This document shows, in pieces, positions 52,999-57,908 of a DNA stretch of 64,000 nt; the stretch's first letter is position 1; the number at the start of each line of letters is the position of its first letter. A program made the translations under genes and the position numbers. The stretch lies in assembly GCF_009914755.1 (NCBI RefSeq), contig NC_060932.1. The stretch is one strand, 5' to 3'. Origin of the DNA: the human T2T-CHM13v2.0 reference genome, Homo sapiens. The notes beneath the pieces were generated by a model, which was not told where the DNA came from, searched no databases, and was given only the letters and a program-made list of their open reading frames with translations.

Positions 52999-53031
52999 AC
53001 AATGGAGTCAAGGAGATAGAACCTTATGAAG
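52999..53031 (+). CDS. Candidate microexon, 33 nt, phase 1->1 (N/D-NGVKEIEPYE)
   Basis: About 60-nt U-rich tract, then ttccctag|ACAATG...GAAG|gtctgt; purine-rich body; in frame with the 110-nt RIMS2 exon. Confidence 0.65.
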
Positions 53032-53322
53032 GTCTGTACATAAAAGAGGGTTTGTTTTGTGCTAACAGCCTTTTTGGGGGGCTAGTAAGCAAAAATAAAC
53101 CCAACTGCAATTGATGTCCTTTCGTTGTGTAGACTTAAATACAGTAAAATTATTTTGTTTTATGATATCTGACAAAGTATTCAACTTTTTTTTAACTTGG
53201 AAATTATACCAAGGAGTTAAATATCTTTGATTCATCAAATAAGAATGCAAAGAGTTTAACTTCTTTTAAATGACCAGATAAAATGTGCTCTTTCATAAAA
53301 TTTTTATGTACCTTTTAACCAG

Positions 53323-53336
53323 AAACTAGATTTCGA
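53323..53336 (+). CDS. Candidate microexon, 14 nt, phase 1->0 (ETRFR)
   Basis: ccttttaaccag|AAACTAGATTTCGA|gtaaga; frame is restored by the 40-nt exon. Confidence 0.5.
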
Positions 53337-54053
53337 GTAAGACTTTAACCAAAGATATCAATTGCAGTCTACGTTTACATCATTGAGGATGTACACATAG
53401 TGTAGTTATATTTACCATCATATATTTCATTTTTTATGATGATGTTTTTAATTATTAAATTTGGCTTTCTAGAAAAGAAAGTTGTTGAATTAGAAAGTGA
53501 TTGTGGCTTGCGTTTCCAACATCATTTTTCATGTTGTAGCAAGACTGCTTACAGTATATCAGAGTTAAATATGATATAGTTTTATTATCAAACACTACAT
53601 TATGACTCAGAAGAAAATACTGAATGGTGATATATGGAGTGTCATACATTTGCTAGATCAATACAAAATCCTCTACCAGTTATGGAAATCTGAAATTAAC
53701 TTTGTATCTTTAAAAACTTGTTGACTGTTTACTTATGAATCTCTAGCACATAGAATAATGCCTGGCACATTGTAGACCCTCAATAAATCTTTGTTGAATG
53801 AATTCATGAAATATTTATTTAAAAAGGGAAAAGCTACCTCAAATAGTATACAAAGTACCACTAAAATAATCTCGTCATTATATATATGTTTATATTAAAT
53901 TCGTATTTCTGTAACCTATTTGTAACAAATTTGTAAGCGTGCTGCATTCGAGCAGCAATATTTTATACCCTTATATAACTTGTTGATATAAGTTGTGTTC
54001 TTGTTAACTGGATGATGGTCAACTTCTGTTTTGTCGTTCTTTCTATTTCCAAG

Positions 54054-54093
54054 TACCATAATTTTGAACAATCCAGTGATATTGTGACTGATG
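54054..54093 (+). CDS. Candidate microexon, 40 nt, phase 0->1 (YHNFEQSSDIVTD)
   Basis: ttgtcgttctttctatttccaag|TAC...GATG|gtctgt; 14+40=54 nt keeps frame. Confidence 0.5.
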
Positions 54094-54748
54094 GTCTGTT
54101 ATGCTGCCTGAGAAAAAGACTTCACAGCATTTTTATAGTTCTTAATTATTTGCTTAAAATTGGGGGCATAGAATTTTAAATCACTTTTCCTAAGGAAAGT
54201 TTAGTAATATTTATGGAACTTTTTGTCTCTTCAGTGTTTTTAAAGATGGAGTTTCAACATCATTTATTGGCATTTAAAGTCAGAAACTATAATTTATGCA
54301 CATTTTTAAAATTGAATTTTTAATGTTGTTCATAGCAATAGTCTATTGAAATATAAGTAGCTCTATTCTTTGTAATAGCAAGTATCCTAGAAAACAGAGC
54401 CTATTGGTAATACTGAAATTCAGAGATGGTGAAGTTTCTGATGGGCTTCTCAATAAAGATTATCTTTACTATTGTTTTTGTCCCTATAAAATTAATTAAA
54501 ACCACAGTTTTCCTTTAAAGTCCCCAATTGTGATTTTTCCATTTTTTTTATTTCATAAAACAAAGAGGAGCCAAAACCTCCCTTATCCTTTTTAGTATGA
54601 AATAAAAGGGGTTTTGTTTTTTAGTTTTGTTTTATATAAAAGTATGGATGATTTTTTAAAGTGTTTTTATAAATGTTGATATGGAGACTTCAGTAGATTA
54701 TGCAATTTTTTTTTTAGTTTTAAAGAAGATATATAATATCTCTTTTAG

Positions 54749-54773
54749 AAATCGCAACTTCAGTTAATCTTCA
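54749..54773 (+). CDS. Candidate microexon, 25 nt, phase 1->2 (EIATSVNLH)
   Basis: atctcttttag|AAATCG...CTTCA|gtaagt (perfect intronic donor); frame is restored by the 74-nt exon. Confidence 0.5.
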
Positions 54774-55358
54774 GTAAGTAACACAAAATAGACTATCAGT
54801 TGATGGTCTAAATCAAATTATGTTTGGATTATCACCTAAAAAGTTAATTATGAGAAGTTGTAATTTAATGGCATTATTTTAGAATTAAAGTATTGAAATA
54901 TTTATTTTCAAATCCTTTTCAACAGCCAAAATATGAGCAAGTCATAATTTAACTCTTTATGATTTTGATTATTTTATATTTTAGTCTGTTATATATTTAG
55001 CCATTTATCTTTGTTTAGAACCAGAGAAGTAAAATAAGAATAATATAGAAAGCACAATGTACTAAAAACTATAAGGCATTATTATTATTTTTCCCTAACT
55101 TTTATGTACTGCCATTTTGTAAAATGTCATTTTCTCTTTTTCTAGAAGAAAAGTTATATAACTTTTTTTAGTAATAGACCAAGTTTATATATAAAGTATT
55201 TTGCCTACTTTACCCAGTTATCCACATATTACAAATATTTTAAAAGTCACAATTTCTCTTTTACAAATCAAAGTCATCATAAAAGCAATGTGATAATTAA
55301 CCAGTAAATTTATTTACTTTTCTATAGCATGTCAGAAACGTATCAAAAATAACCTATT

Positions 55359-55652
55359 GGGCCAGTTGCAGTGGCCCACGTGGCTCACGTCTGTAATCCC
55401 AGCACTTTGGGAGGCTGAGGTGGGTGGATTGCTTGAGCTCGGGAGTTCAAGACCAGCCTCGGTAACATGGTGAAACCCCATCGCTATAAAAAATATAAAA
55501 TTAGCCAGGCATGATGGCCCACTCCCATAGTCCCAGCTACTCGGGAGGCTGAGGTGGGAGGATCACTTGAGCCCAGGAGACGCAGGTTGCAGTGAGCCGT
55601 GATTGTGCCACTGCACTCCAGCCTGGGTGACGTGAGACTCTGTTTCTAAATA
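55359..55652 (+). mobile_element. AluJ/S
   Basis: Dimeric sense Alu with a small internal duplication gtggcccacgtggctcacg. Confidence 0.9.
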
Positions 55653-55777
55653 ATAAGTATCTATTGGAGTCTTTATCATTCTGAATAATTTAGAATTTGT
55701 TATTTGTTTAGTTTCATTGAAGAGTAACAGATATACCTATTTGGTCTTATATTTTTCTTTACTTTTGCTTCTGCAAG

Positions 55778-55851
55778 TACAGAAGTTAATGAAGAAACTG
55801 AGCATGTGGAAGAGCAGGGGGAAGAAAAGCAGGGAGAAGAGGTCAAGGCAG
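55778..55851 (+). CDS. Candidate exon, 74 nt, phase 2->1 (TEVNEETEHVEEQGEEKQGEEVKA); alternative acceptor at 55783 gives 69 nt, phase 1->1
   Basis: tttttctttacttttgcttctgcaag|TAC...GCAG|gtctgt; GAA-rich body that stands out from the AT-rich flanks; 25+74=99 nt. Confidence 0.6.
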
Positions 55852-56572
55852 GTCTGTCTGACTGTGTATCTAAAATAAATAAGTGATTGTTTTCAAATAT
55901 GACTTTACAATTTTACATAAGACTTTAGGCTCCAAATTTATAAATGCACAATGAAGAATAGATTGTTTTTCACAACTAACTTTAAGATAAATTACCTCAT
56001 TTTATTAATGAATGGGTATTACTTAAGCTATCTAGGCAATTTGTCAGAATATTTAATTTACCCAACTGGCTAAATATTTTCCCTGATGTTTAAATCAAAC
56101 TAGAATTATAGGTAGTGCCCCTGACCAAGACATACACCTACCCTTTACCCAGCTTTACATTCAGTTCATTTGTTTATTCAAAAATATTTAATGAGTACCT
56201 ACTAGAAAACTATATTTTATCATGTGTTATGGTGAGTACAGTTTTGTTGAAGCTTTAGCCCATTCTCCTATGGATTTTGAATCTAGTAGAAGCAAATTAT
56301 AAAGAAATATAGAACGGAATATAAATTCCATTAAAACATTTATAGACCATGATCATTTTTTCCATTATATTTTTTTCCTAAAATAAAGCAATTACAGGCT
56401 TCTCTTCTTCATCCCAGTTCAATATTACTCTAACATTTATTGTCAATCATAATTTCTCCCCATCTTTCTAAATGAAATGCATACCTTTTATTTTTGTTGT
56501 TTTTAAAGTCCCTATTATGTTTATATACCATAATGTTTAATGTTCTTGAAAGGATTTTAAAACTTAAAAGAT

Positions 56573-56778
56573 CCCAGCCTGGCCAACATGGCAAAACCCC
56601 ATCTCTACTAAAAATAAAAAAATTAGCTGGGCATGGTGGTGCGTGCCTGTAGTCCCAGCTACTTGGGAGACTGAAGCAGGAGAGTCACTTGAACCTGGGA
56701 GGCAGAGGTTGCAGTGAGCCAAGATCACATCACTACACTCCAGCCTGGGCAGCAGAGCGAGACTGTGTCTCAAAAAAG
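56573..56778 (+). mobile_element. 5'-truncated AluS
   Basis: ccagcctggccaacatgg...gactgtgtctcaaaaaa. Confidence 0.9.
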
Positions 56779-57163
56779 TTAAAACATTATATAATCAGTA
56801 AATCAGTATATTTTTATATACTTCTTTTATCAAATTTTCACTATTTTTATTTGAAACTCAGAATTGAATACTAATCTTACCAATTATCAAGTTTAATTGT
56901 AACTTTCTTTGAATAATACAGAATACCTTTAATTTTGTCAAGTGTTTAACTGACCACTTTTTATTTATGAATAATAGAGTGTACTTTTTGTGCCTTTTTT
57001 TCCTCTGGTTTTCATGGTGTGAAAGCAATGCCATTACATATATTGTACATAAGATATATTTTCATGGAAGCATTCTCTCAATGGAGTTTTTAGTTTTACA
57101 ACTGAAAACATCTCTTAAGCTACTAGAATTACTCATTATCAGTAACTTTTTAATGTCATAAAG

Positions 57164-57199
57164 GCGACAAATATCATCAGTCATCTGTAATGGAAACAG
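57164..57199 (+). CDS. Candidate microexon, 36 nt, phase 1->1, GC donor (GDKYHQSSVMET)
   Basis: gtcataaag|GCGAC...AACAG|gcaagt; matches the GC-AG donor consensus AG|GCAAGT; no stop. Confidence 0.45.
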
Positions 57200-57536
57200 G
57201 CAAGTTTAATTGCATATTTCTAGACATGTAGAATTGCTTTGGTTCTGAATATCTACTATCTAACTTTTAGAATGTCACCCTTCTTCCATTTTCCTGCAAT
57301 AATTTAGGAATTGCATTTTTATGGAATACTATAAGAATGAATTTCATTTTAGCTTAGCTGTTAAGTTAATGTTTTCCCATTAGCTCATTCCTCTGTATCT
57401 CATATAGTCCATACAAACACTGCAGCCTTTCACACTGTTAATTGTCTTCCACATTAAAGTCATTTTTTAAGGTAGCATTAGTTTGGGGACTTCAGCAATA
57501 GTTAATATCACTTTTATTTATTTTAAATTCATTAAG

Positions 57537-57596
57537 ATAAAGAAGCCCATGTGCTAAACCAGTTTGTTGCTGCTGTTTTATTGTCAAAAGTAATTA
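57537..57596 (+). CDS. Candidate exon, 60 nt, phase 1->1 (DKEAHVLNQFVAAVLLSKVI)
   Basis: cttttatttattttaaattcattaag|ATAAAG...AATTA|gtaagt; no stop in the chain frame. Confidence 0.35.
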
Positions 57597-57863
57597 GTAA
57601 GTTGCATCAGTTTTTAAATTAACATAAAAGCATAACCATATACTATAAAAATGATTTTTCATTTATTTGGTTTTTTTTACTTTTCCTATGAGATAGGAAG
57701 TATATACTTTTCTCTTGTGTTCATTAATACAGAGTGTCATGTTTAGTGCATGGATTTGTTTCCCTATTGTGTGATTTCATCTTTTTTGATGTGCTTGGTT
57801 TTTATTTTGGTTATTAATGATCTTAATCATTAATCACTATTGTCTATTTTCAATATTATAAAG

Positions 57864-57908
57864 ACAATGAGGGAGAAACATCAACACCACCTACTAATGG
57901 GAAAAAAG
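57864..57908 (+). CDS. Candidate microexon, 45 nt, phase 1->1, GC donor (D/N-NEGETSTPPTNGKK)
   Basis: attataaag|ACAATG...AAAAAAG|gcaagt; U-rich upstream region with TGCATG at 57747-57752. Confidence 0.5.

What the first reader, a model, noticed from the sequence alone, without database searches (positions are those of the whole stretch)
52999..57908. Chain of eight phase-matched tiny exons encoding an acidic insert right after the RIM-BP-binding motif
Seen in sequence: eight segments bounded by AG and GT/GC (33, 14, 40, 25, 74, 36, 60, 45 nt; 327 nt = 109 codons) have phases 1-1, 1-0, 0-1, 1-2, 2-1, 1-1, 1-1, 1-1. They join with no stop to the phase-1 end of the RQLPQLP exon: ..GTLDR NNGVKEIEPYE ETRFR YHNFEQSSDIVTD EIATSVNLH TEVNEETEHVEEQGEEKQGEEVKA GDKYHQSSVMET DKEAHVLNQFVAAVLLSKVI NNEGETSTPPTNGKK. 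Established: RIM1/2 are heavily alternatively spliced between C2A and C2B, and RQLPQ(L/V)P binds RIM-BP SH3 domains. I do not recall this peptide in canonical RIM2 isoforms. Inference: this is a tissue-restricted microexon array adding a Glu-rich disordered segment to an Arg/Ser-rich basic linker, which could alter RIM-BP binding or condensate behaviour. Caveats: I picked the sites by eye after the fact, and predicted transcript models may already contain some of them.
Basis: partly seen in the sequence, partly recalled or inferred. Interest (0 to 1): 0.9.

Follow-up and report, generated by a model that had tools for sequence, protein, structure and literature searches.

The report
Three real RIMS2 cassettes, five chance
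Only three of the eight proposed mini-exons in this human RIMS2 intron are real: two are already annotated and one is an ancient exon missing from the human gene table, while the other five and the frame-matched chain are what chance gives.

Summary
The arithmetic is right. All eight segments have AG before and GT or GC after. Lengths, phases and the stop-free joined reading are as stated. The chain is not above chance.

Protein models from other species split the eight:
- E1 (52999-53031) and E5 are known cassettes.
- E8 (57864-57908, 45 nt, GC donor) is absent from the human RefSeq table supplied. It is the orthologue of an exon in Macaca fascicularis RIMS2 X3/X4 and in 90 of 90 listed bird, frog and gecko entries.
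- E2, E3, E4, E6 and E7 share no 5-residue word with any of 278 fetched RIMS proteins.

What is really there is an old array of phase 1-1 cassettes, A (E1), B (E5, acidic) and C (E8), followed by exon D beyond the window. It sits just after the RIM-BP-binding proline motif. Any effect on RIM-BP binding is inference. Interest is modest.

The parts
52081..52190 (+). Constitutive RIMS2 exon encoding the RIM-BP-binding proline motif (RQLPQLP). It ends in phase 1.
   Evidence: Annotated in the supplied table. Translation and donor. tblastn of orthologues maps to 52079-52192.
52999..53031 (+).
   Evidence: Annotated in other RefSeq transcripts (supplied table). An E1-like segment is in 169 of 278 fetched proteins, from mammals, birds and frog. 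Its acceptor is the strongest among the candidate and annotated sites scored (99.5th percentile of all AG in the window).
55783..55851 (+).
Evidence: Annotated (supplied table). 44 of 278 fetched proteins carry it. It is present in primates, dugong, wild dog and ground squirrels. An acidic exon sits in the same position in birds and frog. Charge.
57864..57908 (+). Not in the supplied human RefSeq table.
   Evidence: Macaca fascicularis RIMS2 X3/X4 (P0160/P0159) carry it between B and D. tblastn gives 14 of 15 residues to window 57863-57907. Orthologous exon is in 90 of 90 listed non-mammal entries. Bird and frog exon peptides score best at this exact place and frame out of 127,912 six-frame positions, for 6 of 7 peptides.
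57909..57914 (+). GC-type donor of cassette C (AAG|GCAAGT), consensus at every scored flanking position of my 7-position PWM.
   Evidence: 99.9th percentile among 1872 GC dinucleotides. AGGCAAGT occurs only twice in the window, here and at E6.

Best explanation
The intron after the RQLPQLP exon of human RIMS2 holds the first three members of an old tetrapod array of independent, frame-preserving (phase 1-1) cassette exons. These are A = 52999-53031, B = 55783-55851 (the acidic one) and C = 57864-57908. Exon D and further cassettes lie beyond the window.

A and B are already annotated in human. C is the human orthologue of an exon that gene models include routinely in birds, frog and gecko, and in macaque among mammals. 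It keeps its AG, a consensus GC donor, its 45-nt length and an open frame. It is therefore most likely still spliceable, but included rarely or in few cell types in mammals.

The other five segments (E2 53323-53336, E3 54054-54093, E4 54749-54773, E6 57164-57199, E7 57537-57596) and the 55778 acceptor are chance AG..GT/GC segments strung together after the fact.

How it works (inferred, not shown): because every real cassette is phase 1-1, any combination can be included. This varies the length and charge of the disordered basic linker a few residues downstream of the proline motif that binds RIM-BP SH3 domains. B alone swings the local charge from positive to strongly negative.
For: - Bounds, phases and translation.
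- A and B: the supplied annotation, plus (169 and 44 of 278 proteins). 44 of 44 proteins with B show the 55783 junction.
- C: macaque X3/X4 read B-C-D; 14 of 15 residues, E 1.6e-5 within the window; 498 hits, 120 listed; 92 of 120 listed carry C directly before D: 90 of 90 non-mammal, 2 of 30 mammal; top-scoring of 127,912 positions for 6 of 7 non-mammal peptides.
- Junction codons behave as phase 1 predicts: D after B in macaque, N after the constitutive exon in gecko.
- Against the other five: no shared 5-mer with any of 278 proteins. Exons A, B, C and D are contiguous in all bird, frog and macaque models that contain them. E2, E3 and E4 are not multiples of 3, and E3 alone gives a stop at codon 3. 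E7 is hydrophobic (mean hydropathy +0.98, against -1.1 to -2.05 for the linker and the real cassettes).
- Chain at chance level.
Against: - All cross-species evidence is from predicted protein models, not reads or genome alignments. No vertebrate genome or RNA-seq resource was available.
- The protein database is clustered at 90% identity, so isoforms that differ by a small cassette can be hidden inside a cluster. Absence of E2-E4, E6 and E7, and of a human or further mammalian C isoform, is therefore weak.
- Only isoforms that contain B or D, or the 120 best-ranked of 8000 hits (shortest first), were seen. An isoform with E6 or E7 but without B, C or D could have been missed.
- I cannot tell whether the macaque model rests on RNA or on protein homology.
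- E3 has a good pyrimidine tract (95.9th percentile) and the same G|GTCTGT donor as E1 and E5.
- E6 has a consensus GC donor.
- C's acceptor is weak on my rough PWM (75.8th percentile). C is absent from the 66 human RefSeq transcripts and from 28 of 30 listed mammal entries, so it may no longer be used in human.
Confidence: 0.62

Rival explanations
1. Cassette C (57864-57908) is a relic in human. It descends from the tetrapod exon but is no longer spliced into human RIMS2 mRNA. A, B and the rejection of the other five stand as in the best explanation.
For: It is not among the exons of 66 human RefSeq transcripts (supplied table). Only 2 of 30 listed mammal entries carry it, both from one species. 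The acceptor is weak on my PWM (75.8th percentile, AAG-type). The donor is GC, not GT.
Against: AG, a GC donor matching consensus at every scored flank position, the 45-nt length and the open frame are all intact. The frame is closed 37 nt upstream and 8 nt downstream of the exon. It matches the macaque exon, which is in gene models, at 14 of 15 residues. The central codons appear to have been frame-restored after two 1-nt indels (inference), which suggests continued use in the primate lineage.
Confidence: 0.3
2. The reader's full eight-exon chain is a real, tissue-restricted transcript structure, including the 14-nt and 25-nt microexons and the 55778 acceptor.
For: All sites exist and the joined frame is open. 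E2's sites score about as well as those of known exons. E2+E3 (54 nt) and E4 plus the 5-nt acceptor shift (30 nt) each preserve frame as pairs.
Against: 545 alternative chains of equal quality exist in the same region, and 14 of 20 control blocks yield such chains. No 5-mer of E2, E3, E4, E6 or E7 occurs in 278 proteins. 0 of 44 B-containing proteins use 55778. Bird, frog and macaque models have no exons between A, B and C. These segments are not in 66 human RefSeq transcripts (supplied table).
Confidence: 0.02
3. E6 (57164-57199) is a diverged tandem copy of cassette C and a second, unannotated GC-AG exon.
For: The only two AGGCAAGT octamers in the window (both strands) are the E6 and E8 donors, 709 nt apart on the same strand. 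Exon-plus-flank alignment scores 30, the best of 237 intron tiles, and 0 of 300 shuffles reach it. Both are phase 1-1, open and preceded by ATAAAG.
Against: The exon bodies alone are not significantly alike: 1188 of 21,023 random 36-mers score as well. Two octamer matches is the chance expectation (mean 2.13). No E6 5-mer occurs in 278 proteins, and no model has an exon between B and C.
Confidence: 0.08

Closest known systems
Annotated human RIMS2 cassette exons 52999-53031 and 55783-55851 (RefSeq alternative transcripts)
   Same: Same gene, same linker, same phase 1-1 design, and the same weak G|GTCTGT donor.
   Different: No model uses that site (0 of 44).
Exon C of RIMS2 gene models in Macaca fascicularis (isoforms X3, X4), birds (Grus, Falco, Heliangelus, Motacilla, Agelaius, Cuculus), frog (Mixophyes) and gecko (Paroedura)
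   Same: Same position between the acidic exon B and exon D. Same 15-residue length (14 in gecko). Shared D.E at the start and PPxNG[KR]K at the end (diverged in gecko and one cuckoo form). Best match in the window is at 57863.
   Different: It is not listed for human in the supplied RefSeq table. The middle four or five residues differ from birds in a way that fits two compensating 1-nt indels (inference). The human donor is GC; the donors of the other species were not visible to me.
Alternatively spliced linker exons of RIM1 between C2A and C2B (rat RIM1alpha H1084-R1169 and A1207-T1378, as listed in the methods of bioRxiv 10.1101/2023.10.27.564439; passages read)
   Same: Optional segments of the disordered region that carries the RIM-BP-binding proline motifs.
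   Different: Paralogous gene. I did not test whether any RIM1 exon is homologous to A, B or C, because the own-genome search was unreachable.
Neuronal SRRM4/nSR100-dependent microexons (Rims2 is named among genes with such exons in PMC4387716, passage read; PMC7273530 mentions a conserved neuron-specific RIMS2 micro-exon, passage read)
   Same: Short exons in a synaptic scaffold gene. E2 (14 nt) and E4 (25 nt) have microexon lengths.
   Different: Those papers do not say which RIMS2 exon is meant. E2 and E4 are not frame-preserving on their own and have no model support. The real cassettes here are 33-69 nt.

Membership tests
RIMS2 C2A-C2B linker cassette array (A-B-C-D) | AG acceptor and GT or GC donor at the stated bounds | tested here: met
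   All eight segments. This alone does not discriminate: 31 such segments lie in the region at the same site strengths.
RIMS2 C2A-C2B linker cassette array (A-B-C-D) | Each exon is phase 1-1 (a multiple of 3) and open, so it can be included or skipped alone: E1, E5 (55783), E8 | tested here: met
   33, 69 and 45 nt. Open alone and in combination. E6 (36 nt) and E7 (60 nt) also meet this.
   14, 40, 25 and 74 nt. E3 alone gives a stop at codon 3. E4 with the annotated E5 gives a stop at codon 11.
RIMS2 C2A-C2B linker cassette array (A-B-C-D) | Present in transcript or protein models of RIMS2: E1, E5, E8 | tested here: met
   E1-like in 169 and E5-like in 44 of 278 fetched proteins. E8-like in 92 of 278, of which 2 are mammalian (macaque). 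E8 is not in the supplied human RefSeq table.
RIMS2 C2A-C2B linker cassette array (A-B-C-D) | Present in transcript or protein models of RIMS2: E2, E3, E4, E6, E7 | tested here: not met
   No shared 5-residue word in 278 proteins. Not in the supplied human table. Caveat: the database is clustered at 90% identity and only part of the 8000 hits was seen.
RIMS2 C2A-C2B linker cassette array (A-B-C-D) | Positional orthology across tetrapods (same order relative to the proline-motif exon and exon D) | tested here: met
   A-B-C-D order in birds, frog and macaque. One search places C at 57863 as the top of 127,912 positions for 6 of 7 peptides. This is at protein level only; no genome alignment was possible.
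Neuronal microexon (27 nt or less, frame-preserving, SRRM4-dependent; definition recalled) | Length of 27 nt or less and frame-preserving on its own (E2, E4) | tested here: not met
   The lengths (14 and 25 nt) qualify, but neither is a multiple of 3.
Neuronal microexon (27 nt or less, frame-preserving, SRRM4-dependent; definition recalled) | Neural-specific, SRRM4-dependent inclusion | not testable with these tools
   No expression data were available.
GC-AG intron donor | GC at +1/+2 with otherwise consensus flanks (AG|GCAAGT) | tested here: met
   E8 is at the 99.9th and E6 at the 100th percentile of 1872 GC sites. The exact octamer occurs only at these two places. Actual use in human is not testable here.
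Poison (NMD-inducing) cassette exon: considered for E3 | Inclusion introduces a premature stop | tested here: met
   Stop at codon 3 after either upstream exon.
Poison (NMD-inducing) cassette exon: considered for E3 | Evidence of inclusion, or conservation of the exon and its flanks | not testable with these tools
   No reads and no vertebrate genome alignments were available. There is no model support.

The most novel reading that the evidence does not exclude
Cassette C (57864-57908) is a live human exon that current human RefSeq misses. It would be used in a narrow cell population, for example ribbon-synapse cells such as photoreceptors, hair cells or pinealocytes, where RIMS2 is the main long RIM. 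Its frog-to-human conserved PPxNG[KR]K end would be a docking motif that, together with the acidic cassette B, retunes how the neighbouring proline motif engages RIM-BP. E6 could be a second, paralogous GC-AG exon of the same kind.
Probability: 0.25. Interest if true: 0.45.

Novelty: new member of a known kind. Interest (0 to 1): 0.3.

Why it matters
RIMS2 is a disease gene (cone-rod synaptic disorder with neurodevelopmental and pancreatic involvement; PMC7273530, abstract and passages read). A conserved coding exon missing from the human table would matter in two ways: variants in it or its GC donor would be missed or mis-scored, and isoform-specific constructs would lack it. Biologically, the A-B-C-D array shows that the stretch right after the RIM-BP-binding motif has been a tunable, charge-switching module since early tetrapods. 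That gives a concrete handle for testing whether linker splicing changes RIM/RIM-BP assembly. As a caution, the result shows how easily a frame-matched 'exon chain' can be assembled by eye from AT-rich intron.

Tried and rejected
I resent the 52-residue open stretch around the exon to the same tool.
2. E6, E7 and E8 have open stretches of only 25, 28 and 30 residues, so they could not be searched directly. E3's 66-residue stretch could have been, but its 13-residue exon part would not reach significance, so I spent the last search on the macaque C+D region instead.
3. The own-genome search for RIMS1 paralogues of E8 was unreachable three times.
4. E6 as a duplicate of E8: exon-plus-flank alignment looked good, but the exon bodies alone are not significant, so I kept it only as a minor rival.
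5. G|GTCTGT donors at E1, E3 and E5: 9 matches in the window against about 5 expected, and 2 of 100 shuffles reach 9. This is suggestive for E3 but not enough.
6. The Rbfox-type TGCATG motif is at chance level in the window (31 against 32.9 expected).
7. Papers: seven searches and passages of eight papers gave no description of these particular exons. Wang and Sudhof's 2003 genomic description of RIM genes (recalled) is not in the searchable library (one search found nothing). No supplements were opened, so exon tables in supplements (for example microexon lists) may name RIMS2 exons I could not see.
8. I did not run structure prediction, complex prediction or the representative-protein search. 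At 50% clustering and without names they could not separate isoforms or taxa.

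
Full report
**Setting.** The window is part of human RIMS2. Exon 52081-52190 encodes the RQLPQLP proline motif and ends in phase 1. 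A proline-rich motif of RIM between C2A and C2B binds the SH3 domains of RIM-BP (passages read in PMC7456537; the methods and results of bioRxiv 10.1101/2023.10.27.564439 speak of PxxP motifs that interact with RIM-BP). The finding concerns the intron that follows.

**Observation.** Eight segments are bounded by AG and by GT (six) or GC (two). Lengths are 33, 14, 40, 25, 74, 36, 60 and 45 nt, the phases are as listed, and the joined reading is stop-free.

**Is the chain more than chance? No.**
- I scored all AG, GT and GC sites with a rough position-weight matrix. Its frequencies are recalled, so I used it only for ranking.
- Region 52260-57990 then holds 81 acceptors, 32 donors and 31 segments of 14-74 nt. 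They can be strung into 545 different stop-free eight-exon chains that start and end in phase 1.
- In 20 control blocks of the same length (9 + strand blocks holding no annotated RIMS2 exon, 11 blocks of the opposite strand) the median is 36.5 segments. 14 of 20 give at least one such chain, median 133.
- Seven segments of the region are open and phase 1-1.
That shift exists only to absorb E2+E3+E4 (79 nt). With the annotated acceptor the four together hit a stop.

**Evidence from other species.** No vertebrate genome or RNA-seq resource was at hand, but the large protein database holds RIMS2 gene models of many vertebrates.
- A search with the upstream constitutive exon gave 8000 hits with 120 listed. 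Many carry the E1 peptide directly after the motif exon.
- A search with the 52-residue open stretch around E5 gave 40 proteins, all RIMS2 of apes and Old World monkeys. In all 40 the acidic exon is joined through acceptor 55783. Six different exon combinations occur, and two entries (Macaca fascicularis X3 and X4) read E1, E5, then the E8 peptide, then a 30-residue exon 'D'.
- tblastn puts the macaque E8 peptide at window 57863-57907 with 14 of 15 residues identical. D and later exons are not in the window.
- A third search used the macaque C+D stretch and gave 498 hits with 120 listed. 92 of the 120 carry exon C directly before D: 90 of 90 entries from birds (Grus, Heliangelus, Motacilla, Agelaius, four Falco species, Cuculus), a frog (Mixophyes) and a gecko (Paroedura), but only the 2 macaque entries among 30 mammalian ones. 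The same listing shows E5 also in dugong, African wild dog and two ground squirrels.

**Independent placement of C.** I slid each non-mammalian exon-C peptide over all 127,912 six-frame positions of the window.
- For 6 of 7 peptides the best score is at 57863 in the E8 frame. The exception is the gecko string, which includes one residue of the preceding exon.
- For 4 of the 7 the runner-up is the same DNA read one base later, where the bird residues EKHQ reappear.
- This fits two compensating 1-nt indels on the lineage to Old World primates. They changed four or five central residues but restored the frame and the 45-nt length. That is an inference from proteins only.
- Conserved from frog to human are the first and third residues and the C-terminal PPxNG[KR]K.

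**The five other segments.**
- None of E2, E3, E4, E6 or E7 shares even one 5-residue word with any of the 278 fetched proteins.
- In every bird, frog and macaque model, exons A, B, C and D follow one another without anything between them.
- E2, E3 and E4 are not multiples of three, and E3 on its own gives a stop at its third codon.
- E7 would put a hydrophobic 19-residue stretch (mean hydropathy +0.98) into a linker whose real parts lie between -1.1 and -2.05.
- Two have features worth recording. E3 has a good pyrimidine tract and the same G|GTCTGT donor as E1 and E5. E6 has a consensus GC donor, and AGGCAAGT occurs in the window only at E6 and E8.
- E6 with its flanks aligns to E8 with its flanks better than any of 237 intron tiles. 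The exon bodies alone do not: 1188 of 21,023 random 36-mers do as well. I therefore treat duplication as a minor possibility.

**What it is.** The window holds cassettes A (33 nt), B (69 nt, net charge -7) and C (45 nt) of an old tetrapod array of phase 1-1 exons that continues downstream with D and others. Because all are phase 1-1, any subset keeps the frame, and the models indeed show many combinations. The junction codons change exactly as phase 1 predicts: K or E before B, D or N before C.

**How it works.** The flanking linker is basic, at +3 and +5 for the two constitutive exons. Inclusion of B therefore reverses the local charge seven residues after the proline motif.
- Shown: the exons, their frames, their conservation and their composition.
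- Inferred: that this modulates RIM-BP SH3 binding or RIM/RIM-BP condensates. RIM1 linker regions and their combinations influence condensate formation, and RIM1 is extensively alternatively spliced (passage read in PMC13294362).

**Limits.**
- The database is clustered at 90% identity, so small-cassette isoforms may be hidden.
- I saw only predicted proteins.
- I do not know what evidence supports the macaque model.
- That C is unannotated in human rests on the supplied RefSeq table alone. GENCODE, CHESS and VastDB could not be consulted.
- Seven literature searches found no paper describing these exons. Supplements were not opened.

**Verdict.** Two segments are known exons (one with a wrong boundary), one is a conserved exon apparently missing from human RefSeq, and five are unsupported. 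Novelty: a new (human) member of a known kind. Interest 0.3.

Noticed in passing
window 57863-57908: Read one base later than the coding frame, the human exon C DNA gives the residues EKHQ that birds have in the same position, while its two ends match birds in the coding frame. This fits two compensating 1-nt indels before the human-macaque split. It is an inference from protein comparison only.
   Followed up: partly
window 57164-57205 and 57864-57914: E6 and E8 both run from ATAAAG| to |GCAAGT. AGGCAAGT occurs nowhere else in the 64 kb on either strand. Exon-plus-flank alignment is the best of 237 tiles, but the exon bodies alone are not significantly similar.
   Followed up: yes
window 53031-53037, 54093-54099, 55851-55857: The donors of E1, E3 and E5 share the heptamer G|GTCTGT. 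The window has 9 copies against about 5 expected. E3 (40 nt) also has a good pyrimidine tract, but its inclusion gives a stop at codon 3, so it could at most be a poison exon.
   Followed up: partly
window 52728-52851 and 56124-56255: Two UniProt entries end in peptides that map into this intron: pig (P0011) at about 62% identity, with stops in the human reading, and gibbon (P0012) at 91% identity. These look like alternative terminal exons or read-through models in those species. Neither stretch appears in the supplied human exon table.
   Followed up: partly
window 57747-57752: This is the only + strand TGCATG (Rbfox-type motif) between 52650 and 59302, and it lies 112 nt upstream of cassette C's acceptor. 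The motif count in the whole window is at chance level, so this may mean nothing.
   Followed up: partly
proteins P0149, P0246, P0263, P0266, P0269, P0278 (downstream of the window): Some primate, peccary and whale models carry a further about 14-residue cassette (GKLVLEIETL..-like) between exon D and the next exon. Birds have another (EEKKADPENGD..-like). The array is therefore longer and more lineage-variable than the part in this window.
   Followed up: no
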